Assembly: GCA_035458445.1 (NCBI GenBank)
Contig: DATHZU010000235.1
Coordinates: 1-35,474 of the forward strand
Direction of reading: 5' to 3'
From: Thermohalobaculum sp.
GTDB lineage: Bacteria > Pseudomonadota > Alphaproteobacteria > Rhodobacterales > Rhodobacteraceae
DNA: 35,474 nt
Positions within the stretch are counted from its first letter, which is position 1; the number at the start of each line of letters is the position of its first letter. Of the stretch, positions 20,469 through 35,438 are shown piece by piece. The translations under genes were made by a program, and so were the position numbers. The notes under the pieces were generated by a model. The model saw only the letters and a program-made list of their open reading frames with translations. It did no database searches and had not been told where the DNA came from.

Positions 20469-20502
20469 AGCGCCCCGGCGGCAAGCCGGCAGGGCCATGG
20501 CC

Positions 20503-21630
20503 TCAGAACGTGGTCAGCGCCCGCGCCGATCCGGCAAACGTGACGAAGGGCATGACCGACTGCAGCACCTTCATCCACTTGGTGAAAGGCGCCGAGGTGA
20601 CATAGAGCGTATCGCCGTCGCGCATCACGAATTCACGGGCCAGGAACATGCCGCCGGGACTGGTCAGGTCGATCAGGTAGACGACCCTCCGGTCGCCACC
20701 CCCCGGGGCGCCCGGCAGCACCTGTGCCGCGACCTCGGCCGGCTCCTGCCGGAAGATGAAGACGCCGGTGGGATCCGCGCTGGCGTCCAGAAGCCCGCCG
20801 ACGGCGCCCATTGCCCGGTCGACCGACAGGTCGCGGGCTGGGAAGGGCACGGTCGCTGGGCGGCCGACGGAGCCCAGCGCCGTGAAGCTGCGCCGGTCGC
20901 GCTCGGCGATCACCGCATCGCCCGTGCGCAACGCCACGTCGTTGCGCGGGTCGTCATAGAGGTCCTGCACCCAGATCTCGCCCGAGGCGGTGCCGCGGCG
21001 CAGCTTGAGCCGCACCACCTCCGGGTCTTCGCCGACACCGCCGGCGCGCGCCAGCATCGGCAGCAGCCGCGCGGTCGGCGGCTCGATCGGATAGAGGCCG
21101 GGCGACCGCACCCGGCCCTGCAGGCTGACCACGCGCCCGCGCATCTCGAGTGGAAAGATGTCGACCTGGGGGTTCAGGGTCTGCTCGGCCAGTTGCACGC
21201 GAATGGCCTCGCGCAACTGGGCGACCGTCCGTCCCGCGGCGCGGACCGCGCCGACATAGGGGACGAAGATCATGCCCTTCTCGTCCACCTGCGCCTTCGG
21301 CAAGGCCGTCGCGCCGATGCCCTGCGGGTTCAGCAGGCCCTGGTCGATGTTCTCCCAGACGGTGATCGCCACCACGTCGCCCGGAGCCAGCGCCGCGGTG
21401 TCCTCGGGCGCAGCCTCGACGAAGGCCGCCGGGAACACCGCACGCTCGTCCAGCCGGGTCGCCTCGGCCACGGCGGGCGTGACGCGGACCAGGTCGAAGT
21501 CCAGCCCGGCCGGCGCCGGCGCGGTCACCTCGGAATAATCGGGTCCGCTGCGCGGCACGCCGCACGAGGCGAGGCCGGCCAGCAGGGCGGCGAACAGGAT
21601 GGGGCGGAGCGCTCCGGCAATCATCGGCAT
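20503..21630 (-). CDS. Polysaccharide/capsule outer-membrane export lipoprotein (Wza/BexD/CtrA family)
   Basis: Lipobox LAS-C followed by GVPRSGP; GDVVAITVWE, GMIFVPYVG, DPTGVFIFR, MRDGDTLYV motifs; start set at ATG 21630. Confidence 0.9.
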   Translation of the reverse strand: MPMIAGALRPILFAALLAGLASCGVPRSGPDYSEVTAPAPAGLDFDLVRVTPAVAEATRLDERAVFPAAFVEAAPEDTAALAPGDVVAITVWENIDQGLLNPQGIGATALPKAQVDEKGMIFVPYVGAVRAAGRTVAQLREAIRVQLAEQTLNPQVDIFPLEMRGRVVSLQGRVRSPGLYPIEPPTARLLPMLARAGGVGEDPEVVRLKLRRGTASGEIWVQDLYDDPRNDVALRTGDAVIAERDRRSFTALGSVGRPATVPFPARDLSVDRAMGAVGGLLDASADPTGVFIFRQEPAEVAAQVLPGAPGGGDRRVVYLIDLTSPGGMFLAREFVMRDGDTLYVTSAPFTKWMKVLQSVMPFVTFAGSARALTTF

Positions 21631-21722
21631 TTCGACTTTCCCTTTCTGGGTGGGCCGGTTCGGCATTCAACCGTTCCGGTCTGCGGACCTATGGCCCGGT
21701 CCGTTGTTGCGGGTGCCGGTCC

Positions 21723-23048
21723 TCATCCGACCGCCAATCGTAGTTCCGCGGCCTGCGGCCGCGGGATCGGGGCGACGGCCGGCGCGGCCGCGCCGGTTTC
21801 GGCCAGCAGCGTTTCATAGGGGTCGAGCGGCGCCAGCATCGCCTGCGGCAGCGTGGCAAGGAGTTCGTCGATCCCGGCCTCGGAATAGAACGAACCGCGC
21901 AGCTGCGACGTCTGGATCAGGAACTGGCGGAACGCCCAGTAATGCGCCTGCCGCGGCGGCCGTGGGGCGGCAAAGAAACGTGCCAGCGGTTGGTCCGAGG
22001 TCAAGCCGGGGCGCGCATAGACCGCATCGCCCAGGGCGGCCACTGGCAGTCCTCGCCACAGCGCCTGTTGCCCCGCGGTCGAATTCACGGTCACCACGCT
22101 CCGCGCGCCATCCAGAAGCGCCGAAAGGCCGTTTCCGCCGTCGAGGAACAGCACCCGTCCGGCCACGCCGTGATGCGCCGCTTCGTCCGCGATGACGCGG
22201 CCCAGCCGCTCGCGCCCGTCCTCGAATGGATGGGCCTTGAAGACCAGAAGCTCGTCAGGCGCAGCGCCGGCTGCAAAGCCCGCGACACAGTCGGCGACGA
22301 ATTCCGCGGAGCAGCGATAGGGCGAATGGAACTGCATCGCGCTGTCGAACGAGAGTTGCAGCAGGGCCAGATTGTAGGTGCGGCCCGCCGCCAGCAGCCG
22401 CCAGACCTGGAATCCCTGGGCCGCCCGGCGCAGGGGCAGGCTCGCGAGCCGGGAAAGATAGAGACCCAGCTCGGCCCACAGGCCCCTGCTTCTGCGGCTG
22501 CGGTAGCGCCCGTAGGCACGCGATGGCATCAGAAGCCGCAGGTAGTACCTTGCCGAGTGCCACATATGGGCGCGATGGCTGCCCCAGCGGTCGGGGACCT
22601 GCTCGGCCGGCGGCTCACACGGACCCAGCGCCCGCATAATTCGGTCGAGGCCGATCTCGTTCAGCAGCGAGTTGCCGTTGCTGCCCCCCCGCTCGTAGGT
22701 GGCCCAGTGAGGGCGCAGATACCCCTCCTCGAGACAGTGGCAACGGATGCCGCGGGCGCGGGCCAGGTCAATTGCTTGGGCGTGCTCGGGACGCGAGTCG
22801 CCGTAGAGAACGATGTCGGTGACCCAGTGGAGAGAAAGATACCGGACCAGCCAGGCCGCGTAGGAGGCCTCCGGCCCGACATAGCGGTCCAGCGGACCCG
22901 CGGCCTGCCATTCCGCCTCGTCCGCCGCGTTGAAGGCGACCCGCCGGACCTTGGCGCCCAACCGCGCCATCTCGAGTGCAAGGTCGCGGAAGAACGGCCC
23001 GTGTGGACCCTGAAGAAACAGGAAGACGCGACCGCTTGCCTCGTTCAT
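21723..23048 (-). CDS. kpsS: Capsule biosynthesis protein KpsS (beta-Kdo transferase family)
   Basis: FLFLQGPHGPFF, EEGYLRP, GSNGNS, LQLSFD, FKAHP, VTVNSTAG motifs; start set at ATG 23048. Confidence 0.88.
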   Translation of the reverse strand: MNEASGRVFLFLQGPHGPFFRDLALEMARLGAKVRRVAFNAADEAEWQAAGPLDRYVGPEASYAAWLVRYLSLHWVTDIVLYGDSRPEHAQAIDLARARGIRCHCLEEGYLRPHWATYERGGSNGNSLLNEIGLDRIMRALGPCEPPAEQVPDRWGSHRAHMWHSARYYLRLLMPSRAYGRYRSRRSRGLWAELGLYLSRLASLPLRRAAQGFQVWRLLAAGRTYNLALLQLSFDSAMQFHSPYRCSAEFVADCVAGFAAGAAPDELLVFKAHPFEDGRERLGRVIADEAAHHGVAGRVLFLDGGNGLSALLDGARSVVTVNSTAGQQALWRGLPVAALGDAVYARPGLTSDQPLARFFAAPRPPRQAHYWAFRQFLIQTSQLRGSFYSEAGIDELLATLPQAMLAPLDPYETLLAETGAAAPAVAPIPRPQAAELRLAVG

Positions 23049-23240
23049 GCCACTGCTGGTCCCCTGGCCGGTCACGCCCGATACTCGATGGGTCAGCGCT
23101 ACCACGGCGAAGGTTAATGGACGGCTTACGCCGCGCGGGCTTTCGGCCCGCCAGCCGCGCCAATGCCTTGCCCCAACCAATGGCTTTCTGTATCGCTGGC
23201 GCCCAGACCCCGCTGGGGGACAAGTTCAGAGGATCGCCGC

Positions 23241-23843
23241 ATGTTCACCGGGATCATCCGCGAGGTCGGCACGCTGCTCGCCCGGCGCGACGCCGGCGAC
23301 ACCTATCTGCGAATCGGTTGCCAGCGGTCGCCCGAGACCATCGAGATCGGCGCCTCGATCGCCTGCAACGGAATCTGCCTGACGGTGATCGAGACCGGGT
23401 CAGACAACGGCCAGAACTGGTTCGAGGTCGCGGCGTCGGCGGAAACCAAGTCGAAGACCACTCTGGGCGGCTGGCAGCCCGGCCAGCGGATCAACCTGGA
23501 GCCCGCGCTCAGGCTGGGCGACGAGATGGGCGGGCACATCGTCTCGGGCCATGTGGACGGGGTTGGGGAAATCACCGCGATCCGGCCCGAAGGCGACAGC
23601 CATCGGCTGACGATCCGGGCACCGGAAGGGCTGGCGAAATTCATCGCTGCCAAAGGCTCGATCTGTGTCGACGGCATATCGCTGACCGTGAACGAGGTCG
23701 CGGGCGCAGCCTTCGGGGTGAACATCATTCCGCACACCTGGTCGGTGACCAGCCTCGCAGGGGCGGAACCGGGCGCGCGAGTAAATCTGGAAATCGATTT
23801 GCTGGCGCGGTATGTCGCCCGCCTGAACGAAATGACGGGCTGA
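23241..23843 (+). CDS. ribE: Riboflavin synthase
   Basis: Invariant N-terminus MFTGII; GASIACNGICLTV, GGHIVSGHVDG, KGSICVDGISLTVN, VNLEID. Confidence 0.97.
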   Translation: MFTGIIREVGTLLARRDAGDTYLRIGCQRSPETIEIGASIACNGICLTVIETGSDNGQNWFEVAASAETKSKTTLGGWQPGQRINLEPALRLGDEMGGHIVSGHVDGVGEITAIRPEGDSHRLTIRAPEGLAKFIAAKGSICVDGISLTVNEVAGAAFGVNIIPHTWSVTSLAGAEPGARVNLEIDLLARYVARLNEMTG

Positions 23844-23870
23844 ATCCCGCGCCGCACTCCGGAGCCTCCG

Positions 23871-24986
23871 ATGACCGAAACCGACTACAGCGACTACATC
23901 TCGACGGTCGCCGAGATCATCGACGAGGCGCGCAACGGGCGCATGTTCATCCTGGTCGATCACGAGGACCGCGAGAACGAGGGCGACCTGGTGATCCCGG
24001 CGCAAATGGCCACACCCGACGCGGTCAACTTCATGGCCATGCACGGGCGCGGGCTGATCTGCCTGGCGATGGAGGCCGAGCGGCTCGACAAGCTGGGGCT
24101 GCCGATGATGGCGCCATCCAACAGCTCGCGCCACGAGACCGCGTTCACCGTCTCGATCGAGGCCCGCGAGGGCGTGACCACCGGCATCTCGGCCCATGAC
24201 CGGGCCCACACCATCGCGGTGGCGATCGACCCGAAGTCCACCCCCGCCGATATCGCGACGCCTGGCCATGTGTTCCCGCTGCGTGCCCGCGAGGGAGGCG
24301 TGCTGATGCGGGCCGGGCATACCGAGGCAGCCGTCGACGTGGCGCGCCTGGCGGGCCTCAGCCCGGCCGGCGTGATCTGCGAGGTGATGAAGGACGACGG
24401 CTCGATGGCCCGGTTGCCCGACCTGGTTGCCTTCGCGCAGCGGCACAACCTCAAGATCGGCACCATTTCGGACCTGATCGCGTACCGCCGCCGTCACGAC
24501 AACCTGGTCCGCGAAGCCGCTTCCGAGACCATGACCTCGACCATCGGGGGCGAGTGGAGCATCCGCATCTTCACCGACCAGACCGAAGGCGCCGAGCATA
24601 TCGCCCTGGTCAAGGGCAAGGTCGACGACGGCGAACCGGTCCTCGTGCGGATGCACGTTCTGGACCCGCTGGACGATCTGCTGGCGCTGCATGCCGAGCG
24701 CTGGCAGCAGGTACCGGATTCGATGGCCGCCATCGCGTCGGAGGGGCGCGGCGCCATCGTGATCCTGCGCGACATGTCGCCGAACGCGATCTCGGCCCGG
24801 CTGAAGGGCGGGGGCGCCTCGCCGAAGGAATTGCGGCAGTATGGCGTCGGCGCCCAGATCCTGGGCGCGCTGGGCGTGACCGAGCTGATCATGCTGACCA
24901 ATTCGCCCGCCCCCAAGGTGGTTGGCCTCGAGGGCTATGGCATCACCATCATCGGCACCCGGCCGATCCCGAAGCGGTGCGAGTGA
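23871..24986 (+). CDS. ribB: 3,4-dihydroxy-2-butanone-4-phosphate synthase fused to a degenerate GTP cyclohydrolase II-like domain (RibBX type)
   Basis: DHEDRENEGD, FTVSIEA, TTGISAHDR, PGHVFPL, RAGHTEA; the C-terminal domain lacks the zinc-binding Cys residues of RibA. Confidence 0.93.
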   Translation: MTETDYSDYISTVAEIIDEARNGRMFILVDHEDRENEGDLVIPAQMATPDAVNFMAMHGRGLICLAMEAERLDKLGLPMMAPSNSSRHETAFTVSIEAREGVTTGISAHDRAHTIAVAIDPKSTPADIATPGHVFPLRAREGGVLMRAGHTEAAVDVARLAGLSPAGVICEVMKDDGSMARLPDLVAFAQRHNLKIGTISDLIAYRRRHDNLVREAASETMTSTIGGEWSIRIFTDQTEGAEHIALVKGKVDDGEPVLVRMHVLDPLDDLLALHAERWQQVPDSMAAIASEGRGAIVILRDMSPNAISARLKGGGASPKELRQYGVGAQILGALGVTELIMLTNSPAPKVVGLEGYGITIIGTRPIPKRCE

Positions 24987-24987
24987 C

Positions 24988-25518
24988 ATGGCCTCGCACG
25001 AGCAACATGGCGTCCTGCCCCTGCCCGAGTTTACACCAGCACCGCGGCTGCTGATCGTCGCGGCCCCGTTCTACCGGAAGATCGCCGACGACCTGATCGC
25101 GGGTGCCCGGGCGGTGCTGGACGCAGCCGGCGCGGTGCACGAGCTGGTCGAGGTTCCGGGCGCGCTGGAAGTGCCGGTCGCGATCCGGCTGGCCGCCGCC
25201 TCGGGCGCCTTCGAGGGTTATGTCGCGCTCGGCTGTATCATCCGCGGCGAGACCACCCATTACGACACGGTCTGCAATGACAGCTCGCGCGGCCTGATGC
25301 TGCTGGGCATCGAGCGCGGGCTGGCGATCGGCAACGGCATCCTGACCTGCGAAAACATGGCCCAGGCGGCGGTGCGCGCCGACCCCTCCGAGATGGACAA
25401 GGGCGGCGGCGCGGCAGCGGCGGCCCTGCATCTGGTGGCGCTGGCCCGGCGTTTCCGGAGACGTGCCTCGGGCGACGTTCTGCTGGCGGCCTCGGGCGGC
25501 GAGCCGGGGGCGGCCTGA
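24988..25518 (+). CDS. ribH: 6,7-dimethyl-8-ribityllumazine synthase
   Basis: VPGALEVP, ALGCIIRGETTHYD, GNGILT, DKGG; ATG 24988 directly after the ribB stop. Confidence 0.95.
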   Translation: MASHEQHGVLPLPEFTPAPRLLIVAAPFYRKIADDLIAGARAVLDAAGAVHELVEVPGALEVPVAIRLAAASGAFEGYVALGCIIRGETTHYDTVCNDSSRGLMLLGIERGLAIGNGILTCENMAQAAVRADPSEMDKGGGAAAAALHLVALARRFRRRASGDVLLAASGGEPGAA

Positions 25519-25519
25519 C

Positions 25520-25999
25520 ATGCCCTCCAAAGCCCACGAGGAGGCGCGGCTGGCGCGCTCGGCCGCCCGGCTGGCGGCGGTGCAGGCGCTTTACCAGATG
25601 GAGATCGGCGGCGCCGACTGGCAGACCGTTCGCCGCGAGTTCGAGGATCACCGCCTCGGCGCCGAGATCGAGGGCGCCCAGTACCGCGAGGCCGATATCG
25701 AGCTGTTCCGCGACATCCTGAAGGGCGTCGTCGCCCGGCAGGCGACCATCGACCAATTGACCGACCGGGCGCTGGTCGAGAAATGGCCGCTGGGCCGGAT
25801 CGATGCAACGCTCCGTGCCATCTTCCGCGCCGCCGGGCACGAATTGACCGCCCGCCTAGACATCCCGCCGAAGGTGTGCATCGGCGAGTATGTCGACGTG
25901 GCAAAGGCGTTTTTCGAAGGCGGCAAGGAAGCGAAGTTCGTGAACGCCGTGCTCGACCACATGGCCCGCGAGGCGCGGCCGGAGGCGTTCGCGGGGTAG
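25520..25999 (+). CDS. nusB: Transcription antitermination factor NusB
   Basis: RSAARLAAVQALYQME, WPLGRID, EYVDVAKAFF, FVNAVLD; canonical position after ribH. Confidence 0.96.
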   Translation: MPSKAHEEARLARSAARLAAVQALYQMEIGGADWQTVRREFEDHRLGAEIEGAQYREADIELFRDILKGVVARQATIDQLTDRALVEKWPLGRIDATLRAIFRAAGHELTARLDIPPKVCIGEYVDVAKAFFEGGKEAKFVNAVLDHMAREARPEAFAG

Positions 26000-26259: not shown

Positions 26260-26288
26260 TTGAGAGGTCGTGAAATATATGATATCAT
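26260..26288 (+). promoter_or_regulatory. Putative sigma70-type promoter of the uncharacterised operon
   Basis: TTGAGA (26260-26265), 17-nt spacer, TATCAT (26283-26288) in a conspicuously AT-rich patch about 50 nt before the ATG at 26340. Confidence 0.6.
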
Positions 26289-26339
26289 TAGAGAATGTAG
26301 AGTGAATTTCCTATGAGTACAGATTTTGGGAGATCGATT

Positions 26340-27470
26340 ATGAGCGCGCATCCGGCGCGGGTGACTTCCGATCCAGAGCTCGAAAACCCGCACCGCGTCG
26401 TCATCCGGTCCGTCGGGTCGGCGGTGCCGGCGAGCGCAGCCTCGGTGGCCGCGGGGCTTGGTGTTCCGGTGCGCCGTGTGGTCGAAGCCTTCTACCGCGC
26501 GCCGGCCGTACTGGTCGATCAGGTCAGCCCCGAGATCGCCGATAGCATGGCCAAGTTGCTCGGCGAGCTCGGCTACGAGGCGGATGCCGAGCCGGAAACC
26601 GTCCCTCGGCTGGAGCCTGAGCAACTCTTCGACGTCGCGGTCCATGTAGAGGATGTCCAGCAATACGCCGCGATCGTCGCGGCGCTGTCGAGATTCATCG
26701 GATCGAGTGACGAGGAGGCTGCCAGGTTGCTCTCCACTCCGCCTGCGATCGTGTTGGGCGGCGTCAGCGCGGCCACGGTCGCGGCATTGAAAGTGGCGCT
26801 CGGCGCAGGGGCGAGCGTGGTCCATTCGGACCCCGATGTGGCCGCCTACGACCTGTTCCTGGCGCAATGCGAACCTCGAATCGCCGATCAGGTGCTGGCC
26901 GACCTGCGCCGCCGTGGTCACGAGCCACTGGGGCGGGGCGGCTGCATTTTGACGGGCCTGGAACGGGTCGAGGCGGACGGGCTGTGGGCGCAGCACCAGA
27001 AGACCGGCGCGCTGCGGGTCGTCAACCGCGATTTCCTGCGCTTCGACGTGGTGCTGACCGGCCCGGCGGCCGCCACACCGACAGCCGAACAGACGGCCGC
27101 GCTGACCGAGGTCGCCGGCATTCCTGAGGCAGTTGTCCCGGCGGTCTTCGGCGAGTTGCCGATCACCCTGATGGATGCGGTCCCGAGCGCCGATCTGCCC
27201 CGGATTCTGGACGCCCTTGCCGCGGCGGGGCTGGAGGTCAGCGCCGAGTTGGTGACCTTCCTGCATCTGGGGCTGGAGATCGTCGCCGCCGAGTCGCCGC
27301 GGCGGCTGCAGGGCACCCTGACCGAACTCGGCATCCTGAAGGCGGGCGAGATGCTTCCGCGGCTGCCGTTCCGGCTGCCCTATCACATGCCCGAACTCCA
27401 GGCCCGGCTGATGCGCGATTCGCTGGCCGGCATCGGCGTGCGCGCGATGCTGGTGGAGGCACCGGGATGA
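26340..27470 (+). CDS. Hypothetical protein built of about five tandem L7/L12-CTD/ClpS-like repeats
   Basis: Repeats such as FDVAVH..ALSRFIGSSDEEAARLLSTPPAIVLGGVS..VAALKVALGAGA and FDVVLT..LTEVAGIP..ELPITLMDAVPSADLPRILDALAAAGLEV. ATG 26340 has GGGAG 7 nt upstream (ATG 26313 also possible). Confidence 0.7.
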   Translation: MSAHPARVTSDPELENPHRVVIRSVGSAVPASAASVAAGLGVPVRRVVEAFYRAPAVLVDQVSPEIADSMAKLLGELGYEADAEPETVPRLEPEQLFDVAVHVEDVQQYAAIVAALSRFIGSSDEEAARLLSTPPAIVLGGVSAATVAALKVALGAGASVVHSDPDVAAYDLFLAQCEPRIADQVLADLRRRGHEPLGRGGCILTGLERVEADGLWAQHQKTGALRVVNRDFLRFDVVLTGPAAATPTAEQTAALTEVAGIPEAVVPAVFGELPITLMDAVPSADLPRILDALAAAGLEVSAELVTFLHLGLEIVAAESPRRLQGTLTELGILKAGEMLPRLPFRLPYHMPELQARLMRDSLAGIGVRAMLVEAPG

Positions 27471-28087
27471 GCAGGGCCGCCGATTCACGCAATGGCAACG
27501 GGCGGGCCGCCCACGACATCCATTTTGGCATCGCCGAGGCCGGCAAGCTCGCCGCCCTGGCCGGAGACCATCGCGAGGCCCTGCGCCATTACCGCGAGGC
27601 CCTGCGGATGGCGGTCTCGGCGGGTTCGCCCGAAGTCTTCTTCCGGCATTACACCCAGTGCGTGCTGGAGAGCCTGGAACTGCTGGGGGATTATGACGCG
27701 ATCATCCAGTTCTGCGAGAACGCCGACGCCCATTACGCGACTCTGTCGCAGCCCAATCCGCTCCTTGCCCGGGACCACGGGTCGGTGCTGGAACGCCTGG
27801 GCGCCGTGCATCTGAAGGCCGGCCGCCAGGCCGAGGCGAAGGACGCACTGACCCGCGCGCTGGACACTGCCGGCGCAGGCCGGTTGCCGCTGGCCGCGAC
27901 CTTGCTGGGATGGTTGAGACGGGGCCTCTGCCCAGACGTTACGCGGATCACCGAGACCCAGAAGAAGCACAAGTATTTCACCGTCCGCCGCGATCAGGTG
28001 GACAAGACCCGTGCCCGCCCGATGCCGAAGGGCAGCGGCGGCACACCCACATCCGTGGCCGGATTCAACGCCGCCGACGTCCCCTGA
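27467..28087 (+). CDS. TPR-like helical protein
   Basis: AGKLAALAGDHREALRHYREAL and LGAVHLKAGRQAEAKDALTRAL TPR patterns; ATGA overlap with the upstream gene; GGAGG RBS. Confidence 0.75.
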   Translation: MSRAADSRNGNGRAAHDIHFGIAEAGKLAALAGDHREALRHYREALRMAVSAGSPEVFFRHYTQCVLESLELLGDYDAIIQFCENADAHYATLSQPNPLLARDHGSVLERLGAVHLKAGRQAEAKDALTRALDTAGAGRLPLAATLLGWLRRGLCPDVTRITETQKKHKYFTVRRDQVDKTRARPMPKGSGGTPTSVAGFNAADVP

Positions 28088-28132
28088 CGACGGTCCAACC
28101 CGCCGCGGGAATCGCGGCATGGAGGTATTAGG

Positions 28133-29929
28133 ATGCTTGACCTCGAAGACATGACCCCCGGACAGGTATTGGCCGATGCAAGCGTTGCCGAGTTCATCAA
28201 GACCCTCGGCCTCTCGATCGCCGAGGCGCAGAAGGCGCTGGACGAGAACTCGGTCGACCAGATCGGCGAGTTCATCACCCCGCGCGAAGGCCTGGGCGGG
28301 CGCACGCTGCTCGACATGGGGCTGTCGCCGGCGTTCTACCATTACCAGCATGCCGACATCAGCTGCTCGCTGCAGCTGAACCTCAGGGTCGAAAAGGACC
28401 TCAGCGTCGGGCTGAACCTGTCGGGATCGTTCAGCGATACCACCACCTCGGACGAGAACCGTACGGCTTCGAGCTCCAGTACCGAGAGCGGATCGGAAAC
28501 CCGCACCTCCGAGCGCACGGCCAGCGTCAATATCGAGGCCCAGAGCCAGGGCGCGCTGACCATCGGCGGGCGCAATTTCCAGCTCAGCGGCGACGACCCC
28601 TTCACCCGCATCCGCAACCTGCAGGAAGCTGTCACCGCGGATGACGCGGCCGGCGTGCCACGGCTGCTGTACCGGCCAACGCCGCGCACCTTCCAGATCA
28701 CCACCGACGCGCCGGCGGACAAGGTCCAGACCACCACGAACACCATCTCGTTCCAGGGAGGCGGGTTCGACCGGGCAGTGATCCAGGTCGATACCGACGT
28801 GGCCACCGATTACCGCTTGAACGCGTCCACCACAGTCAGCACGACCGCGCAGGGCTCGGTCTCGACCTATGCCGATCATGTTGCGGCACAGATAAACGCG
28901 GCAGGGATGACCGCCTTCGTCGTCGGGCCGAGCACGCCGCTGATGAAGACCTATTTTCGGACCGGGCGCCACCACCTCGAGACCTTCAGCACGGGATCCA
29001 CCACCTATAACGACAGCTTCGCGCAGCGGCTGATGGAACTGGCACAGTTCATTCGCCTGCACAGCATCCCGGTCGAAATCGAAGGCTATGCCGATGCCCA
29101 GCCCTATCGCGGGCAGGGGTCATCGAGTTCGGACCAGTCCAATCGCGACCTCGGCGACCGGCGCGCGCACGAAATTGAGCGCTTCCTGCTTGCCAACGGG
29201 GTGCAATCGTCGCTGATCACCATGGTGCCCTCGCGCGGCGCGGCCGATGCGCAGGCCGCTGGCGGTCCGGAGGACAACGTGAACTTCCGCCGGGCCGAGG
29301 TTCGCACCCGCGGGCGCACCGCCTATTACATCTTCGTCCGCGCGCCGAACTCCAGTTTTACGATCGAGAACGTCTCGCCGGACAAGCTGACGCCGCCGCT
29401 GACCCCGGGCAACGGATTCATCTTCCTGTACCGGCCGCAGCCGCTGGCGCTGGCGGGCAAGAAAGTCACCATCGACGGGACCGAATTCGGTTTGAGCGGT
29501 GCCGCCGGCGGCGGCCATGGTCCAGGCACTCCCTCGGCCCATGCCCATAACCTCAGCACCGCGATCAACGGGAATGCCGCGGTCGACTTCACATCGTCGG
29601 CCGAGGCAAACGTGGTCACGGTCTTCGGCAAGACCACGCCCTTCGAGTTGACGCTGGTCACCTCGGAGACGCGACAGATCCAGATCAGCGGCACCGAGGG
29701 TATCACCATCACCAGACAGTTCACGCGCAGCCAGAGCAGCAGCCTGACGCGGCAAAACACCGGCAACCGGACGGTGGCGGTGGGGGCCTCGCTGGATGTG
29801 CGGTTCTCGCGGCAATACGAGATGAACGTGACGGGCAATTCCTCGATCTCGGCGCGTCTGGTCTCGATACCCGCACCGCCGCAGTTCCTCGAGACCATCA
29901 GGGAATTCCTGAGCGGCAACCAGAACTAG
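28133..29929 (+). CDS. Core-module paralogue 1 with a large internal insertion containing an OmpA/MotB-like domain
   Basis: N-terminal LGLSIAEAQKALDENS / LLDMGLSPAFY and C-terminal SSISARLVSIPAP match the downstream paralogues; internal VEIEGYAD..NRDLGDRRAHEIERFLLANGV..NFRRAEV; GGAGG RBS. Confidence 0.8.
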   Translation: MLDLEDMTPGQVLADASVAEFIKTLGLSIAEAQKALDENSVDQIGEFITPREGLGGRTLLDMGLSPAFYHYQHADISCSLQLNLRVEKDLSVGLNLSGSFSDTTTSDENRTASSSSTESGSETRTSERTASVNIEAQSQGALTIGGRNFQLSGDDPFTRIRNLQEAVTADDAAGVPRLLYRPTPRTFQITTDAPADKVQTTTNTISFQGGGFDRAVIQVDTDVATDYRLNASTTVSTTAQGSVSTYADHVAAQINAAGMTAFVVGPSTPLMKTYFRTGRHHLETFSTGSTTYNDSFAQRLMELAQFIRLHSIPVEIEGYADAQPYRGQGSSSSDQSNRDLGDRRAHEIERFLLANGVQSSLITMVPSRGAADAQAAGGPEDNVNFRRAEVRTRGRTAYYIFVRAPNSSFTIENVSPDKLTPPLTPGNGFIFLYRPQPLALAGKKVTIDGTEFGLSGAAGGGHGPGTPSAHAHNLSTAINGNAAVDFTSSAEANVVTVFGKTTPFELTLVTSETRQIQISGTEGITITRQFTRSQSSSLTRQNTGNRTVAVGASLDVRFSRQYEMNVTGNSSISARLVSIPAPPQFLETIREFLSGNQN

Positions 29930-29938
29930 GGGGCTGTC

Positions 29939-30409
29939 ATGGCCAGTGTCGTTCCACAAGTCACACGCTCGCTGGTCTCGGCGCCGCTGCCGCAGATCAT
30001 CGAGAAGCTCGGGGTGGCGATCGCACAGGCCCAGATGGCGCTGGACCAGAACTCGGTCCAGATCGCCAAGGAGCTGTCCGAGACCGAGGTCGAGATCGGC
30101 AACCGGTCCCACAACCTTCTGTCGCTGGGCTTCACCCCCACCTTCTATGCCTTCACCGAGGCTACGGTCGAGGCGAAGCTCAGCTTCACGATGACCGAGA
30201 GCACCGAGATGTCGGTCAATGTCGGAGTACAGGCCGGGGTCAATGCCGGGATCTTCATGGCCGCCGCCTCGGTCGACGTGGGCTATGCCCGGAAGTTCTC
30301 GGTCTCGTCGTCCGGGACCAGCTCGATCGCAGCGCGGCTGGTCTCTCTGCCGCCGCCGGAGATCTTCATGCAGTTGCTGAAACGCGAGTACCAGCAGGAA
30401 ATCGCCTAA
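29939..30409 (+). CDS. Core-module paralogue 2 (minimal 156-aa form)
   Basis: APLPQIIEKLGVAIAQAQMALDQNS, LLSLGFTPTFYAF, SVDVGYARKFS, SSIAARLVSLPPP. Confidence 0.85.
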   Translation: MASVVPQVTRSLVSAPLPQIIEKLGVAIAQAQMALDQNSVQIAKELSETEVEIGNRSHNLLSLGFTPTFYAFTEATVEAKLSFTMTESTEMSVNVGVQAGVNAGIFMAAASVDVGYARKFSVSSSGTSSIAARLVSLPPPEIFMQLLKREYQQEIA

Positions 30410-30439
30410 TTTGAATCGACATCGGAAAAGGAGAAGAAC

Positions 30440-31207
30440 ATGGCCATCGGACAGGAGCTTCTGAACGTCCCAATGGGTGACATGATCCGGCAGATGGCGT
30501 TTGCCATCGCGGACGGCCAATACAAGCTCGACGAGAACTCGATCAACGTCGCCGAGATGATGGGCGGCCTGACCACGGTCTATGACGAAAGGGGCGACGT
30601 CACCTTCGACGACAGCCGCGTCTTCTTCGGCTACGAGTACATGACCGTGAAGGAGGCCCGGGCCTATGCCGCGGTCGATGACGCCCTGTCCGGCAGCATG
30701 GACGACGACACCATCAAGCTGGGCGAGGTCCTGGACAAGATCATCAAGAGCGGCGACACCGACGACACCGAAATCCGGGTGCCGGTGCGCCATTCGATGA
30801 TGGAGCTCGGCTTCACGCCGACCTTCTATCAGTTCGTCGACACGATCATCGAGGTGAAGATCGCCATCAAGATCACCCGGACCCGCGAGTTTTCCCGGAC
30901 CCGGACCGACAAGAACCGCAACGCCGCCTCGTCGCACAAGCGCAAGCGCAGCTTCTGGGGCACCAGCCGGTCCAGCGCCCATCAATCCACGGTCGCGACC
31001 AGCCAGGTCGATGCCACCTATTCCGGCAAGTATTCCTACTCCGCTGAGGGCGCCAGCATCTTGCGCACCAAGATCACCCCGGTGCCGCCGCCGGCCATAC
31101 TGGAAGAAAGAATCCGTTCATTCATGGAAAGCGAGGAAGAGCGCCGCGCAGCGAGCCTCGAGAAGAAACGCAAGGAACTTGGCCTCGACACCCCGGCACC
31201 GGAATGA
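30440..31207 (+). CDS. Core-module paralogue 3 (acidic insert, basic hairpin)
   Basis: VPMGDMIRQMAFAIADGQYKLDENS, MMELGFTPTFYQF, VDATYSGKYSYSAEGASILRTKITPVPPP; strong AAGGAG RBS. Confidence 0.85.
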   Translation: MAIGQELLNVPMGDMIRQMAFAIADGQYKLDENSINVAEMMGGLTTVYDERGDVTFDDSRVFFGYEYMTVKEARAYAAVDDALSGSMDDDTIKLGEVLDKIIKSGDTDDTEIRVPVRHSMMELGFTPTFYQFVDTIIEVKIAIKITRTREFSRTRTDKNRNAASSHKRKRSFWGTSRSSAHQSTVATSQVDATYSGKYSYSAEGASILRTKITPVPPPAILEERIRSFMESEEERRAASLEKKRKELGLDTPAPE

Positions 31208-31232
31208 TCTCTGGCATTGAGGAGTCTTTGCC

Positions 31233-31802
31233 ATGACCGTTGGCACGGAACTTATGAACACCCCGTTCCCGGAGATGATCCGGCTGCTCGGGGTTGGCAT
31301 CGCGGAGGCGCAGTACGAGCTGGACCTGGTCTCGCTCAAGATCGCGCGGATGATGGCGGGCTACGCCCCCGATCCCGAACCGGAGGAGGGTCAGCCCCCG
31401 CCGGTCGTGGCGAGCCCGCCCGAGCGCAACATGCTGGTCCAGCTGGGGGACGGAAACGAATACTCGCTGCTGGAACTGGGCTTCACCCCGACCTTCTATC
31501 AGTTCGTCGATACGCTGATCGAACTGAAGATGTCGATCTCGGTGTCGCGCGAGACCAATATCTCGCGGTCGTCCACCCAGGTCAGGGCCAGCGTCAAGGG
31601 CAGCGTCGGGTTCTTCTCGGCGACGGCGAAGATGAACGTGAGCAGTGTCTCGGCCTCGTATTCGTCGAAATACCAGTACTCCGCCGAAGGCAGCTCGCTG
31701 ATCCGCACCAAGCTGGTGCCGGTGCCCGCGCCCGCGATCCTGGAGCAGCGCATTCGCTCGATGATCGCCAGCACGGTGGCCGCGGCGGAAGGTGAGGGCT
31801 AG
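31233..31802 (+). CDS. Core-module paralogue 4
   Basis: TPFPEMIRLLGVGIAEAQYELDLVS, LLELGFTPTFYQF, VSASYSSKYQYSAEGSSLIRTKLVPVPAP; GAGGAG RBS. Confidence 0.85.
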   Translation: MTVGTELMNTPFPEMIRLLGVGIAEAQYELDLVSLKIARMMAGYAPDPEPEEGQPPPVVASPPERNMLVQLGDGNEYSLLELGFTPTFYQFVDTLIELKMSISVSRETNISRSSTQVRASVKGSVGFFSATAKMNVSSVSASYSSKYQYSAEGSSLIRTKLVPVPAPAILEQRIRSMIASTVAAAEGEG

Positions 31803-31804
31803 CG

Positions 31805-32869
31805 ATGGTGCGGCGCAGTTGGCGCGATCTCGGCGCAGCGGGCGGGTCCGCGCCGCCCGGTGCTGCGGGGACAACCGCGCCGGCACGGCCGGGAGCGCCT
31901 GCCGGGCGCGGCGCTGGGGACCTGGAAGCCGCCGCCGCGATGGCGCCCGACGCGCGCCTGGGAGAGCTGTTGCGCCAGCGCCGCGCGCTGGAGGCGCGCA
32001 TCGCCGGGCTGGCAGGTCTGCCCGGTGCGCCCGGCGATGACGCGCAGACCGCACGCTATCCGGTGATGAGCTTTGCCGAGCGCAGGCGGGAGCAGGCCGA
32101 ATGGGCTGCACGCCGCAATGCGCTGCGCGCGCAGCAGGACGAGATTCGCGGCCGGACCGGCGACGCCGCCGGGGGGAGCCAGCCCGCTCCAGAGCCCGGC
32201 GGCTTGGCACCGACCCCGCTGGAGGCCCGTCTGGGCGCCGGTCTGCCGATCCGGACCGACCTGTCGTCCGGCCGGACCCATCTCGGTGCCGCGCGCGACT
32301 GGATTTCGGACCGCACCTCCGGCCTCCGCTCGGGCATCGGCGCGGCGCGGCGGCGGGTTCAGGAAGCGATCACGCCGGTCAACCGGGTGGCCGATGTGGG
32401 CAACGACCTGCAGCGGCAGACCGACGACGCCGGGCGGCAGCTTCGCGACCTTGACCGGCGCCTGGCTGAAGAAGGGGTCTCCGAGGCGGATCGCGCCGAG
32501 ATCCGAGATTCGATCGGAGGTGAGCAGATTTCGAAGGTCAGCGGCCCGCTTGCCCGCGCCAACAGTGCCTTGAACGCCCCGCGGCGGGCAGTCGAGCGGG
32601 TCGACGAGGGCTGGCAACGCAGGGAGCGCGCCGTCACCGGCGCGATGGACCGCTTCGGCAGTTACGCCGAGATGCGCGACCGGCGCCTGTCGCCCGAGAC
32701 CGGCGGTTCCGGTGATCTATTCGAGCGGATGCGCGCCAATCGGATGGCAGCGCTGGAGCGCCGCCGCGAGCAGCAGCGCGCCGAGGAACGCGACCAGGCC
32801 CGGCGCGACCGCGCCCGGCGGGCGAGCGCCGAGCGCCGCCGCGACGAAGCAAAGAAGGAAGAACGATGA
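31805..32869 (+). CDS. Arg/Ala-rich predicted coiled-coil protein, unknown function
   Basis: Fills the gap exactly (2 nt after the previous stop, ATGA overlap with the next gene); long charged helical runs such as RMAALERRREQQRAEERDQARRDRARR. Confidence 0.65.
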   Translation: MVRRSWRDLGAAGGSAPPGAAGTTAPARPGAPAGRGAGDLEAAAAMAPDARLGELLRQRRALEARIAGLAGLPGAPGDDAQTARYPVMSFAERRREQAEWAARRNALRAQQDEIRGRTGDAAGGSQPAPEPGGLAPTPLEARLGAGLPIRTDLSSGRTHLGAARDWISDRTSGLRSGIGAARRRVQEAITPVNRVADVGNDLQRQTDDAGRQLRDLDRRLAEEGVSEADRAEIRDSIGGEQISKVSGPLARANSALNAPRRAVERVDEGWQRRERAVTGAMDRFGSYAEMRDRRLSPETGGSGDLFERMRANRMAALERRREQQRAEERDQARRDRARRASAERRRDEAKKEER

Positions 32870-33513
32870 GCGACGGCGATTTCATTGCCGATACACTCGA
32901 AGCCATCCTTGTCGGCATGGCGGAAAGTCTCAGAGACGCCCAGGAGGCGCTCAACGCCGCGCCTTCGCTGGACAATTTCGGCCGCCCGGCGCCCCGGTAC
33001 CAGATCCCCAGCCTCGATTTCGAGATCGGTTTCCGGCTGGCGACCGAGACCAAACAGAGCGGCGGCGCCCGGCTGTTGATGATGCCGGTAAAGACCGGCG
33101 AGACCAGCAGCGAGGTGACCAGCCGCATCACCGGCCGCTTCGTCGCCGTGCCGCCGGGCGACGGGTTGCCGCTGCCGGTGCTGACCGCCGCGGCCACCCG
33201 CGACGCGGGCGGCAATATCGTCCTCGCGGTCTCGGCCAGCAACAGCGCTGGCGAAGTGCTGACCGGGGTGCCAATCGAGCTCAATTTCGACATGGAGGCC
33301 TCGCGTGCGCTGTCGCAGGCGGCCGGCGTCCAGACGCCACGGCTGGCAGGCGCAGTCACGCTGGGCGACGCGGTCCTGGTTACCGATGAGACCGGACAAG
33401 CGGCCACCAGCGTTTCACTGGCGCCCAGCCTGCAGCGACAGGCGGTAGTCGTGCTCAGCGCCGAGCTGGGCTCTGAAATGGTCCGTGTGACGCTGAGCAA
33501 GGAGATCGGCTGA
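32866..33513 (+). CDS. Divergent core-module paralogue 5 fused to an Ig-like (Big_1-like) domain
   Basis: LEAILVGMAESLRDAQEALN..RYQIPSLDFEIGFRL..TSRITGRFVAVPP, then IVLAVSASNSAGEVLTGVPIELNF..LVTDETGQAATSVSL. Confidence 0.75.
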   Translation: MSDGDFIADTLEAILVGMAESLRDAQEALNAAPSLDNFGRPAPRYQIPSLDFEIGFRLATETKQSGGARLLMMPVKTGETSSEVTSRITGRFVAVPPGDGLPLPVLTAAATRDAGGNIVLAVSASNSAGEVLTGVPIELNFDMEASRALSQAAGVQTPRLAGAVTLGDAVLVTDETGQAATSVSLAPSLQRQAVVVLSAELGSEMVRVTLSKEIG

Positions 33514-34757
33514 TGGTCGCTGTCGTCGTCGCCGCGAAGATCTTCACCGACGAGGGCAAGCCGGCGGTGGGCCATAATGTCGAGGTCCATTGCTTCTCGG
33601 TCAATGCCCGGAGCTGGCGGACGGTGCTGAACGCCCGCACCAACAATGCCGGAGTCGTGTCCGCCAGAATCCCTGAAGTTGCGACGTCAGGTGAGTTCGC
33701 GCCCGCATTCCGTCTCGTCGAGCCCGGCTCGCCGGTGCCACGCGTCCTGGCGACCGGAGGCATGGTGCAGTTCAATGCCAACTCGAAGATCCTGATGGTC
33801 GATTTCGGAGAGATCGAGCGACTGGAGGAGACCTCCTTCCAGCGCCAGCATGTGGCGTCCGCCTTCCGCAATACGAAGCACGTGACGGCCGGCGTTCCCA
33901 AGCGCCCCGAGGTCAACACGGTGGGCGTAACCCGGATGGTGCTGTCGAACCCGGCCCTGGTCGCGGGGTTTGCAACGCCCGGCGCCGCGGCCGCCACGCC
34001 CGACGCCACGGTCGCGCTGCTGGTCAGCAAGGAGACCGCAGCGTTCAAGAAGCGCGAGACCGAGTTGAATTCGCTGCTCATGGACAAGGACCGCCAGATC
34101 ATGGCGAAGACCGATAACCTGACGGTCGCTGAGAATCAGATCAAGAACCTGGAAGCGTCGCTCGCCACCGCCAGGGTAGCGGCGGAAGCGGCCCGGGGCG
34201 AAGCACAGGCCGCCAAGGCCGCCGAGGCCGCGGCCAAGGCGCAGGCGGAAGCCGCCAGGGTCGCAGCGCAGGCAAGCCCGAAACCGGCCACGACGGAGGC
34301 GGATGTCGGCACCCTTCTTTCCAATTTCGGCTCGAAACTGAACGTTGCCAACACCCAGATGAAGACCCGAAGCGTTGGGTACAAGGTGAGCAACGTCAAG
34401 CTGGACCTGCGGGGCAAATTGCTGAACGAAGGTCAGACCATCCAGATCGGTCGCGCGCCCGGCGATGCACCGGATGATTCCGGGCTCAGCGCCGAGTTGA
34501 TCCCTGACGATCCGGCGACCAGACCGGACTCCGTCGCCGTGCCGGACGTCTCCGGGCTGACAGAGGCGGCGGTGCGCCGGGTCCTGGCCTCGGTGGGCCT
34601 GCGGCTCAACCTGGCCACCAAGACGCTGGCTGACGGGCAGGGAACTGCTGGCCAGTCGATCCAGCAGCACCCCGCCGCCGGGTCCGATGCCAGGCGCGGC
34701 AGCAGCATTCTGGTCGTGTTCGGCGTACGCGCCACACCCCCAGCAGGGAAGGAATAG
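33513..34757 (+). CDS. Multidomain protein: N-terminal beta-sandwich, coiled coil, reduced core-like segment, C-terminal PASTA domain
   Basis: DEGKPAVGHNVEV..RTNNAGVV; coiled coil/Ala-rich linker; VPDVSGLTEAAVRRVLASVGL..QQHPAAGSDARRGSSILVVF; TGATG coupling to the upstream gene with an AAGGAG RBS. Confidence 0.78.
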   Translation: MVAVVVAAKIFTDEGKPAVGHNVEVHCFSVNARSWRTVLNARTNNAGVVSARIPEVATSGEFAPAFRLVEPGSPVPRVLATGGMVQFNANSKILMVDFGEIERLEETSFQRQHVASAFRNTKHVTAGVPKRPEVNTVGVTRMVLSNPALVAGFATPGAAAATPDATVALLVSKETAAFKKRETELNSLLMDKDRQIMAKTDNLTVAENQIKNLEASLATARVAAEAARGEAQAAKAAEAAAKAQAEAARVAAQASPKPATTEADVGTLLSNFGSKLNVANTQMKTRSVGYKVSNVKLDLRGKLLNEGQTIQIGRAPGDAPDDSGLSAELIPDDPATRPDSVAVPDVSGLTEAAVRRVLASVGLRLNLATKTLADGQGTAGQSIQQHPAAGSDARRGSSILVVFGVRATPPAGKE

Positions 34758-34760
34758 ACC

Positions 34761-35438
34761 ATGGTCGACTTGCGCAAGCTGACGAGAGAAGTGGTCGCCT
34801 CGCCGCTGGGCGACGTGATCGCCTCGGTGGGCGAGGGCGTGGCGGCGGCGCAAAACGCGCTGGACGAGGGATCGCTGGCGGCGGTGCTGGACATCTACTC
34901 GGAGAACGACGACCAGAAGCTGGCGCTGTTGCGCGAGATCGGCTACCGGCCCACCTTCTATGCCCTGCCCGAGACCATCGGCGAGGTGCGGGTGGCGCTG
35001 CGTCTGGGACAACGATCCGGGGCGCGGCCCCCGGCATCGGCGGCCCGCGCCGCGACGCCCGCGGTCTCGGCCAACCTGGCGCGGCTGGGGCTGAATACCG
35101 GGGTGGTGCCGCGGATGTACGCGACGCCGGTCGATGCGGGCTACGCCAACCAGTTCGCCTATTCCGCCGACATCAGCGCCAAGGTCACCTTCAAGATCGT
35201 CCCGATCCCGGCGCCGGAGGGCGCGGACGAGTTGCGCGTGGTCCCGACCGTCACCGGCCTCGAGGTTCCGGCCGCCCGCGACGCGCTGGAGGCGCTGGGT
35301 CTGGAGCCGGCCTTTGTCGACCAGGCCACCGGCAACACCGTGGCGAACCCGGACGACAAGGCGGCCGTGGCCGAGCAGTCGCCCGTTGCTGGAACCATCG
35401 CGCGTGCCTCGGATACCGTCACGCTGATGATCGTCTGA
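34761..35438 (+). CDS. Core-module paralogue 6 fused to a C-terminal PASTA domain
   Basis: SPLGDVIASVGEGVAAAQNALDEGS, LLREIGYRPTFYAL, VDAGYANQFAYS..KVTFKIVPIPAP, then VPTVTGLEVPAARDALEALGL..EQSPVAGTIARASDTVTLMI. Confidence 0.85.
   Translation: MVDLRKLTREVVASPLGDVIASVGEGVAAAQNALDEGSLAAVLDIYSENDDQKLALLREIGYRPTFYALPETIGEVRVALRLGQRSGARPPASAARAATPAVSANLARLGLNTGVVPRMYATPVDAGYANQFAYSADISAKVTFKIVPIPAPEGADELRVVPTVTGLEVPAARDALEALGLEPAFVDQATGNTVANPDDKAAVAEQSPVAGTIARASDTVTLMIV

What the first reader, a model, noticed from the sequence alone, without database searches (positions are those of the whole stretch)
28133..35220. A repeated core module: helix - LGFTPTFY - long beta-hairpin - PxP helix
Shared blocks in 28133, 29939, 30440, 31233 and 34761: (i) P/S-x-x-x-x-I..(I/V)A(E/Q/D/A)(A/G)QxxLDxxS; (ii) (L/M/I)G(F/L/Y)xP(T/A)FY followed by a beta-strand; (iii) a VDxxY..(K/Q)(Y/F)-type block followed by S..I/L...(L/I)(V/T)(P/S)(V/I/L)P(P/A)P and a closing helix. 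The overall layout is reminiscent of DUF2589 and Trypco-type small domains, but I cannot confirm homology by eye. Variation is confined to two insertion points: the helix-to-strand loop and the hairpin tip.
Basis: partly seen in the sequence, partly recalled or inferred. Interest (0 to 1): 0.8.

Follow-up and report, generated by a model that had tools for sequence, protein, structure and literature searches.

The report
Seven-paralog mixed beta-barrel pore operon
A ten-gene operon, conserved in the same order across many bacterial phyla and not found in our literature searches, encodes six or probably seven related hairpin proteins plus cell-wall-binding domains, which are predicted to build one mixed membrane pore that would likely be released to attack other bacteria.

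Summary
The five ORFs are paralogs (all 10 pairs z 6.6-50, 0 of 200 shuffles). They lie in a ten-gene operon (26313-35438) whose order is kept in 35 of 42 long-enough related loci. The core is a helix, a long beta-hairpin and a PxP helix (AlphaFold pLDDT 76). It is remotely related to DUF2589 (HHalign 86%). Through the shortest paralog it links to Trypco2/Pepco (91%), which a 2025 preprint reports forms beta-barrel pores. Each paralog keeps its own hairpin tip: two membrane-type, one basic/aromatic, one carrying an OmpA wall-binding domain, two short. PASTA, Ig and lectin domains are fused at the C-terminus. No gene has a signal peptide by a crude scan, and no protease was detected. Best reading: a mixed barrel, built like complement MAC, that is released and attacks other bacteria's envelopes (0.4). 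The barrel alone is about 0.7. Main rival: it breaches its own envelope from inside. Co-assembly is untested because the complex predictor was not available.

The parts
26260..26288 (+). sigma-70-like promoter match (10 of 12, extended -10) just upstream of the first gene
   Evidence: consensus match only (3 sites found, 0.7 expected)
26313..27470 (+). Gene 1, 385 aa: tandem ribosomal L7/L12 C-terminal-domain-like repeats (at least three clear, up to five); inferred adaptor or chaperone
   Evidence: Ribosomal_L12 in 18 of 45 orthologues at E<=0.1, best 1.8e-7; profile hit to PDB 1ctf E 1.9e-5; repeat-to-repeat HHalign P 64-96% for repeats 1, 2, 4
27467..28087 (+). Gene 2, 206 aa: TPR protein; inferred chaperone
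   Evidence: TPR_2 E 8e-7, over cut-off; overlaps gene 1 by 4 nt
28133..29929 (+). Paralog A, 598 aa: core split at the hairpin tip by polar Ser/Thr-rich segments and a ~400-aa insert of nested small domains around an OmpA-like domain
   Evidence: orthologues without the insert (156-212 aa) in L147, L154, L168
28982..29278 (+). OmpA-like peptidoglycan-binding domain (residues 284-382); D321 and R344 conserved
   Evidence: Pfam OmpA in 44 of 44 orthologues; D and R together in 52 of 59; fold Z 14.7 to Pal, rmsd 4.7, 119 aligned
29939..30409 (+). Paralog B, 156 aa: minimal core with a membrane-type alternating hairpin tip
   Evidence: AlphaFold hairpin at residues 69-102/105-137; tip faces +2.95 / -0.63 mean hydropathy over 60 sequences
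30440..31207 (+). Paralog C, 255 aa: large helix-to-strand loop insert; long polar hairpin with a basic/aromatic tip
   Evidence: tip faces -0.8 / -1.3, not membrane-type
31233..31802 (+). Paralog D, 189 aa: core with a membrane-type alternating hairpin and a Gly-Phe-Phe turn
   Evidence: tip faces +2.18 / -1.52 over 56 sequences
31805..32869 (+). Gene 7, 354 aa: Arg-rich, highly charged, predicted helical protein of no known family; possible plug, cargo or scaffold
   Evidence: R+K 19%; no Pfam, NCBIfam or PHROGs hit; no usable Atlas hit; only coiled-coil-level PDB hits
32866..33513 (+).
   Evidence: HHalign P 88%, E 3.5e-6 against the core profile, 42.7 against shuffle maximum 21.9; Big_1 in 10 of 41 and weak Trypco2 in 3 of 41 orthologues
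33513..34757 (+). Probable paralog F, 414 aa: N-terminal domain, coiled coil, shortest core (residues ~262-331), PASTA (341-403)
   Evidence: PASTA in 40 of 40; short core against Trypco2 P 91% and against paralog E P 41%; against the main core only the helix aligns (P 7%)
34761..35438 (+). Paralog G, 225 aa: core with an irregular tip plus C-terminal PASTA (160-224); last gene, 36 nt before the contig end

Best explanation
The operon encodes six clear and one probable paralogous helix-hairpin subunits that are predicted to co-assemble into one mixed beta-barrel pore, which is likely released without signal peptides and would dock on the cell wall of other bacteria through its OmpA and PASTA domains and breach their membrane. 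Shown here: the paralogy, the fixed gene order, the class-specific tips, the wall-binding domains, and the lack of signal peptides by a crude scan. Predicted: the hairpin fold. Inferred: side-by-side barrel assembly, by analogy with the remotely related Pepco barrel. Inferred: division of labour as in complement MAC, with short, docking-domain-bearing subunits (E, F, G, A) starting the barrel, the basic/aromatic tip of C touching lipid headgroups, and B and D crossing the bilayer. Inferred: the TPR and L7/L12-repeat proteins keep the subunits inactive in the producer. Least supported: release by lysis, and the identity of the target.
For: Barrel: single long hairpin with strict alternation; tips of B, D and the flanks of the A insert have one hydrophobic and one polar face; profile chain core - paralog E - short core - Trypco2; Pepco forms 9-10-mer barrels that act as pores (bioRxiv 10.1101/2025.11.14.688446, section 8). 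Mixed complex: four of five classes are one side of a branch across phyla and C nests inside D (quick tree, 105 rows); all ten genes in order in 35 of 42 loci; even reduced operons keep a long-tipped, a medium and a short subunit together (L125, L127, L176). Action outside the cytoplasm: OmpA in 44 of 44 with the two DAP-binding positions in 52 of 59; PASTA in 40 of 40; among 60 long relatives, 11 carry PASTA, 6 an Ig-like, 5 a LamG lectin and 1 an HhH domain, none an enzyme. Release by lysis: endolysin-like wall hydrolase or wall-binding genes without a hydrophobic N-terminus lie within 2.8 kb of the operon in 9 of 102 loci. Patchy and mobile: 5 of 150 other genomes of the family, varied neighbours.
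Against: No oligomer model exists. The hairpin tip is the least confident part of the monomer model (pLDDT 44-54 at residues 91-120; pTM 0.56). No solved structure matches (Foldseek best E 0.02, VIA Z below 5). The Trypco2 link is transitive, covers 53 columns, uses six hand-picked distant sequences, and had no shuffle control in that form. If paralog A's hairpin crosses a membrane, its 400-residue insert must cross too, which is hard to picture. No immunity-type membrane or lipoprotein gene is in the operon. 93 of 102 loci, including this window, show no linked wall hydrolase by my small profiles, and 5 of the 9 were profile seeds or hand-picked. Pepco itself acts inside its own cell.
Confidence: 0.4

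Rival explanations
1. Inside-out breach or conduit: the same mixed barrel inserts into the producer's own inner membrane from the cytoplasm, the OmpA insert at the hairpin tip reaches and anchors to its own peptidoglycan, and the pore lets out proteins that lack signal peptides, either as a holin-like lysis step or as a new export route.
For: No signal peptide, lipobox or membrane helix by crude scan in the ten families; cytoplasm-type partners; a tip insert lies on the far side of the membrane, which here would be the periplasm; T6SS sheath TssC found in only 21 of 39 carrier genomes and not in this one; neighbouring signal-less wall hydrolases; unchecked earlier notes place DUF2589 pairs beside phage lysis genes.
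Against: PASTA, Ig and LamG domains are fused on the base side and would stay in the cytoplasm, away from their usual ligands. The OmpA insert is absent in L147, L154 and L168. No relatives were found in viral contigs or phage records.
Confidence: 0.27
2. Non-lytic structure: the paralogs build a beta-stranded tube, filament or cap that displays wall-binding and lectin domains, for adhesion or as a scaffold, without making a pore.
For: Small domains in the A insert resemble phage sheath and flagellar cap domains at middling scores (Z 8.6 and 8.2); weak hairpin matches include phage lower-collar and FliF ring proteins; tips of C and G are not membrane-type; orthologues stay 60-80% identical among proteobacteria, which is unusual for a weapon.
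Against: Tips of B and D are conserved two-faced hairpins with aromatic turns; the nearest characterised relative is a pore.
Confidence: 0.2
3. Anti-phage suicide pore: TPR and L7/L12-like proteins sense infection and trigger a Pepco-like barrel in the host's own membrane.
For: Remote link to Pepco, an anti-phage effector; patchy distribution; TPR domains are common sensors (recalled).
Against: No protease or STAND NTPase detected in the operon; PADLOC gives only PASTA- and coiled-coil-level hits in 2 of 24 proteins; of 67 flanking proteins only 2 carry restriction-type domains; wall-binding domains are unexplained.
Confidence: 0.1

Closest known systems
Pepco (Trypco1/Trypco2, PF19493/PF19631); bioRxiv 10.1101/2025.11.14.688446
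   Same: Small subunits with a basal helix and beta-strands that form a barrel; weak to moderate profile match of the two short paralogs to Trypco2.
   Different: Pepco is one gene next to a protease, forms a homo-9/10-mer and is activated by cleavage. Here there are six or seven different paralogs with hairpin spans of 46-90 residues (513 with the insert), wall-binding domains, and no protease.
DUF2589 (PF11655), uncharacterised
   Same: Full-length profile match; same layout and tandem paralog clusters; one member of each family carries a similar repeat insert in the same loop (BLAST E 4e-5).
   Different: Below the Pfam cut-off. The DUF2589 loci inspected are compact 2-4 gene cassettes, not this ten-gene operon. 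Only two passing mentions in the searched papers.
Complement membrane attack complex (C6, C7, C8, C9); PMC6294249
   Same: Working analogy: paralogous subunits whose hairpins differ in length and charge build one barrel; some tips carry aromatic and basic residues and touch headgroups, others span the bilayer.
   Different: No MACPF domain hit and no fold match; subunits are much smaller; MAC is secreted with signal peptides (recalled). Analogy only.
Long-stem beta-pore toxins (aerolysin, lysenin, binary-toxin translocases) and beta-collar rings (FliF, phage lower collar)
   Same: Their stems are the top, non-significant matches to the hairpin.
   Different: Only 45-70 hairpin residues align to the toxin stems, Z 4.4 or less; none of their other domains is present.
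Holin-endolysin and lysis-released weapons (tailocins, type 10 secretion; recalled)
   Same: Proteins without signal peptides; occasional adjacent endolysin-like genes.
   Different: No holin-like membrane protein, sheath, tube or baseplate gene detected in the operon.

Membership tests
DUF2589 (PF11655) | Score above the Pfam gathering cut-off (23 bits) | tested here: not met
   No hit in the window proteins or genome (control did not ring); 3 of 123 family members match at best E 0.11
DUF2589 (PF11655) | Profile-level homology over the whole domain | tested here: met
   HHalign P 86%, 138 columns, against 14 DUF2589 sequences; 41.4 against shuffle maximum 16.9; Atlas 0.92-0.93
Pepco / Trypco2 | Score above the Pfam cut-off for PF19631 or PF19493 | tested here: not met
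   No hit in the window proteins; 3 of 41 orthologues of 32866 match weakly, best E 0.0075
Pepco / Trypco2 | Profile homology of the helix-hairpin core | tested here: inconclusive
   P 91% over 53 columns for the shortest core; P 7-11% for 32866 and full 33513, noise level for the five main paralogs; Trypco1 against Trypco2 itself gives only P 2%, so the test is insensitive
Pepco / Trypco2 | Encoded next to a trypsin-like or caspase-like protease that activates it | tested here: not met
   No peptidase family in the ten genes; no conserved flanking gene
Pepco / Trypco2 | Forms a detergent-resistant beta-barrel that permeabilises membranes | not testable with these tools
   Needs purification; the complex predictor was not available
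MACPF / complement MAC | MACPF domain | tested here: not met
   No MACPF Pfam hit in the window proteins or among the listed families for 123 members; the core is about 150 aa with one hairpin
Aerolysin-like beta-pore toxins | Aerolysin pore-forming fold | tested here: inconclusive
   Hairpin-only matches, Z 3.5, rmsd 7.0, 54 aligned
Hcp / phage tail tube | Tail-tube beta-sandwich fold | tested here: inconclusive
   Not among listed matches; no PHROGs hit for the core
OmpA-like peptidoglycan-binding domain (insert of 28133) | Pfam OmpA, Pal-like fold, conserved Asp and Arg | tested here: met
   44 of 44; Z 14.7; D/R in 52 of 59; residue roles from PMC5974059; the match of D321/R344 to those residues is by motif position, binding not tested
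Known anti-phage systems (PADLOC 2.0) | Model hits in the layout of a defined system | tested here: not met
   2 of 24 proteins hit, at PASTA or coiled-coil level only
T6SS-delivered effector cluster | Obligate co-occurrence with a T6SS | tested here: inconclusive
   TssC in 21 of 39 carriers, none in this 93.5% complete genome; incomplete genomes and the Bacteroidota T6SS type may be missed

The most novel reading that the evidence does not exclude
Bacteria independently evolved a complement-MAC-like machine: seven paralogous subunits of a Pepco/DUF2589 superfamily assemble in a fixed order into one barrel, anchor to peptidoglycan through a domain carried on a hairpin tip, and cross membranes without Sec, Tat or Bam, either as a released weapon or as a self-inserting export conduit.
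Probability: 0.35. Interest if true: 0.9.

Novelty: new variant of a known kind. Interest (0 to 1): 0.78.

Why it matters
If true, it adds a widespread bacterial pore machine with far more distinct subunits than the one- to three-component bacterial pore formers I recall, and it parallels complement MAC. It would tie the unstudied DUF2589 family and 1,388 unnamed protein clusters to the one characterised relative, Pepco, and give them a testable function. Natural reduced forms (three to five genes) and forms without the OmpA insert provide a ready deletion series. Cultured carriers are named in the records (for example Rhodobacter aestuarii, Marinobacterium, Corallococcus, Flavobacterium cheongpyeongense), so tests are within reach.

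Tried and rejected
Pfam, NCBIfam and PHROGs name none of the cores. The core profile finds no PDB sequence at E<=10. Fold searches of the 29939 model found nothing significant in the PDB; one unnamed viral model matched at E 1.3e-4, TM 0.58 and was not followed. A link to R-body (RebB) genes, a recalled lead, was not seen in this genome or in five DUF2589 genomes, but the control did not ring. No relatives in viral contigs or phage records. A search for long fused forms gave 2 proteins, both with LamG; it covered only 589-2000 aa and is weak. A homologue search from one Trypco2 sequence returned only itself, so the Trypco2 profile rests on 11 sequences. A T6SS export route is not obligatory on present data. 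RNA: contigs 99-100% identical to the operon occur in four metatranscriptomes of two studies, one of 1,201 nt spanning three genes; the runs were found with this stretch, hold only contigs and may contain DNA, so I do not count this as proof of expression. The complex predictor was not available, so no oligomer was folded. No continuation of the contig was found; relatives show no conserved eleventh gene. Literature searches for DUF2589, Trypco, Pepco and term combinations found no description of this operon; subscription papers are not covered, and the supplements of the Pepco preprint, which may list such neighbourhoods, were not seen.


Full report
OBSERVATION. The window is a whole contig of a 93.5% complete genome. 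From 26313 to 35438 ten + strand genes follow each other with gaps of -4 to 45 nt, behind a sigma-70-like promoter match. Family profiles match at 97-100%. In 28133 the module is split: residues 13-97 and 550-590 both match 29939.

MORE COPIES. 32866 carries a short-hairpin version (P 88%, 97 columns; 42.7 against a shuffle maximum of 21.9). Residues 262-331 of 33513 carry a still shorter one. Its link is weaker: P 41% to 32866, and only the helix aligns to the main core. In reduced operons the equivalent protein ends in the same strand-and-proline pattern as the core (seen by eye). I count six clear copies and one probable. Median spans between the two conserved prolines are 46, 55, 72, 80, 85, 90 and 513 residues.

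CONSERVATION. A scan of species genomes gave 59 loci. Record titles include Alpha-, Beta- and Gammaproteobacteria, Corallococcus, Bacteroidota, Gemmatimonadales, Latescibacterota and Nitrospirota. Of 42 loci long enough to hold the operon, 35 have all ten genes in order. Six lacked a detected homologue of 31805; in the five I inspected, a basic ORF with a similar start sits at that place. Three of those six were also flagged out of order by the script, which I did not resolve; their BLAST-detected genes are in order. One locus (L010) is partial. No flanking gene is conserved, and the 67 of 113 neighbours that I scanned are varied. Only 5 of 150 other genomes of this family have the core: three with the same five hits, two with a reduced form. 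In a quick tree of 105 cores from 21 loci, four classes each form one side of a branch and class C nests within D; similar cross-phylum pairings recur in several classes, which suggests movement as a block (inference; the careful search did not finish). The core profile finds 1,388 clusters at 50% identity. Metagenome loci show variants: orthologues of 28133 without the insert (L147, L154, L168) and three- to five-gene forms.

FOLD. AlphaFold on 29939 with 123 sequences gives helices 4-13 and 17-48, a small hairpin, a long hairpin (69-102, 105-137) and helix 141-151; mean pLDDT 76, pTM 0.56, tip below 55. No solved structure matches significantly; the top rows are hairpin stems of beta-pores and collar rings. 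All classes alternate hydrophobic and polar residues near the base. At the tip, B, D and the flanks of the A insert have a hydrophobic and a polar face; C is polar on both faces with a basic/aromatic turn (I chose the registers by eye). In the 28133 model the insert is confident (mostly above 90) and the stem is not (below 50). The insert holds a Pal-like OmpA domain (Z 14.7) and small domains that resemble phage sheath and flagellar cap domains at middling Z 8.2-8.6.

RELATIVES. Against 14 DUF2589 proteins the core aligns over 138 columns at P 86%, and the Atlas agrees; Pfam's own cut-off is not met. Against 11 Trypco2 proteins the shortest core gives P 91% over 53 columns once six hand-picked distant members are added; without them full-length 33513 gives P 11% and 32866 P 7%, both above 25 shuffles, and the main core is at noise level. 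A preprint reports that Pepco (Trypco1/2) forms detergent-resistant 9-10-mer beta-barrels with a hydrophobic outside and amphipathic basal helices, and kills after cleavage by a linked protease (bioRxiv 10.1101/2025.11.14.688446; passages and section 8 read). This operon has no detected protease, so it is not a Pepco system, but it may work like one. For MAC I read passages of PMC6294249, which describe paralogs with hairpins of different length and charge in one barrel. Other papers seen as passages only: PMC7159879, PMC11402942, PMC3949148, PMC5974059, 10.64898/2026.01.04.697583.

ACCESSORY PARTS. OmpA occurs in 44 of 44 full-length orthologues, with Asp and Arg at the likely DAP-binding positions in 52 of 59. 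PASTA occurs in 40 of 40 orthologues of 33513 and on 34761. Of 60 long relatives chosen from the best 150, 23 carry PASTA, Ig-like, LamG or HhH domains and 37 have no Pfam hit. Gene 1 is built of L7/L12 C-terminal-like repeats, gene 2 is a TPR protein, and gene 7 is a charged protein of no known family. A crude hydropathy and lipobox scan finds no signal peptide or lipobox; 4 of about 530 sequences have a 19-residue window above 1.8. TssC is found in 21 of 39 carriers. Wall hydrolase or wall-binding genes without a hydrophobic N-terminus lie near the operon in 9 of 102 loci. Four were seeds of the profile and one was hand-picked; of the four others, three lie within 500 nt, and one of these is a close relative of a seed. 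This is suggestive, not strong. This genome has an unlinked homologue, 60% identical to one of them, on contig C300.

MECHANISM. The simplest reading of fixed, non-interchangeable paralogs with two-faced hairpins is one mixed barrel (about 0.7; inferred, not modelled). Its direction is open. Wall-binding and lectin domains on proteins without export signals must reach a wall somehow. Release by lysis puts all of them outside at once and fits swappable docking domains; I give this weapon model 0.4. Its weak point is the bulky insert on a hairpin tip and the lack of an evident immunity gene. Insertion from the producer's cytoplasm puts the OmpA tip on the right side but strands PASTA and Ig domains in the cytoplasm (0.27). 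A non-lytic tube or scaffold (0.2) and an anti-phage suicide pore (0.1) remain. Earlier unchecked notes from this scan link DUF2589 cassettes to wall-cutting enzymes; they prompted the hydrolase check and raised the inside-out rival, but they are not independent support.

VERDICT. It is a new variant of the Pepco/DUF2589 kind of subunit in an operon unlike any system I could match. Interest 0.78.

Noticed in passing
window 3632-5834 (-): Adjacent genes with TPR_Slam/DUF2860 plus a weak outer-membrane barrel hit, and with a TbpB-like barrel domain: looks like a Slam (type XI secretion) translocon with its cargo; the family reading is recalled.
   Followed up: no
window 19320-25999 (+): Riboflavin genes and nusB directly upstream of the operon, with a polysaccharide export gene on the opposite strand at 20503-21666 between them; housekeeping context, not a defence island.
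   Followed up: no
window 17400-18263 (+): ADP-ribosylglycohydrolase domain ORF, overlapping other ORFs; gene call not checked.
   Followed up: no
L148:239-11579: Two copies of the operon in tandem on one metagenome contig.
   Followed up: no
L010:9314-12070: Partial operon: only the end of paralog A plus B, C and D; the other six genes were not detected in 20 kb.
   Followed up: partly
P0265 and L080: A core-family protein and a DUF2589 protein carry a similar Gly-rich repeat insert in the same helix-to-strand loop (BLAST E 4e-5).
   Followed up: partly
L092:6581-7048, L093, L094, L096: DUF2589 cassettes of Bacteroidota have a divergent second paralog and a helical third gene; one sits beside a putative wall hydrolase of the type found at L059 and L056, others beside apparent peptidases (read by eye).
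   Followed up: partly
G000 contigs C300, C70, C51, C537: The genome holds several unlinked proteins with peptidoglycan-binding or wall-hydrolase-like domains; C300 is 60% identical to the gene beside the operon in L059.
   Followed up: partly
L159, L173, L195: A low-GC variant operon with an HhH/DUF4332 domain fused to the 34761-like subunit (L159, L173), coiled-coil short cores and TPR genes downstream; host lineage not determined.
   Followed up: partly
BFVD model A0A516MP19: An unnamed 178-aa viral protein matches the 29939 model over its whole length (E 1.3e-4, TM 0.58), although no sequence relative was found in viral contigs.
   Followed up: no
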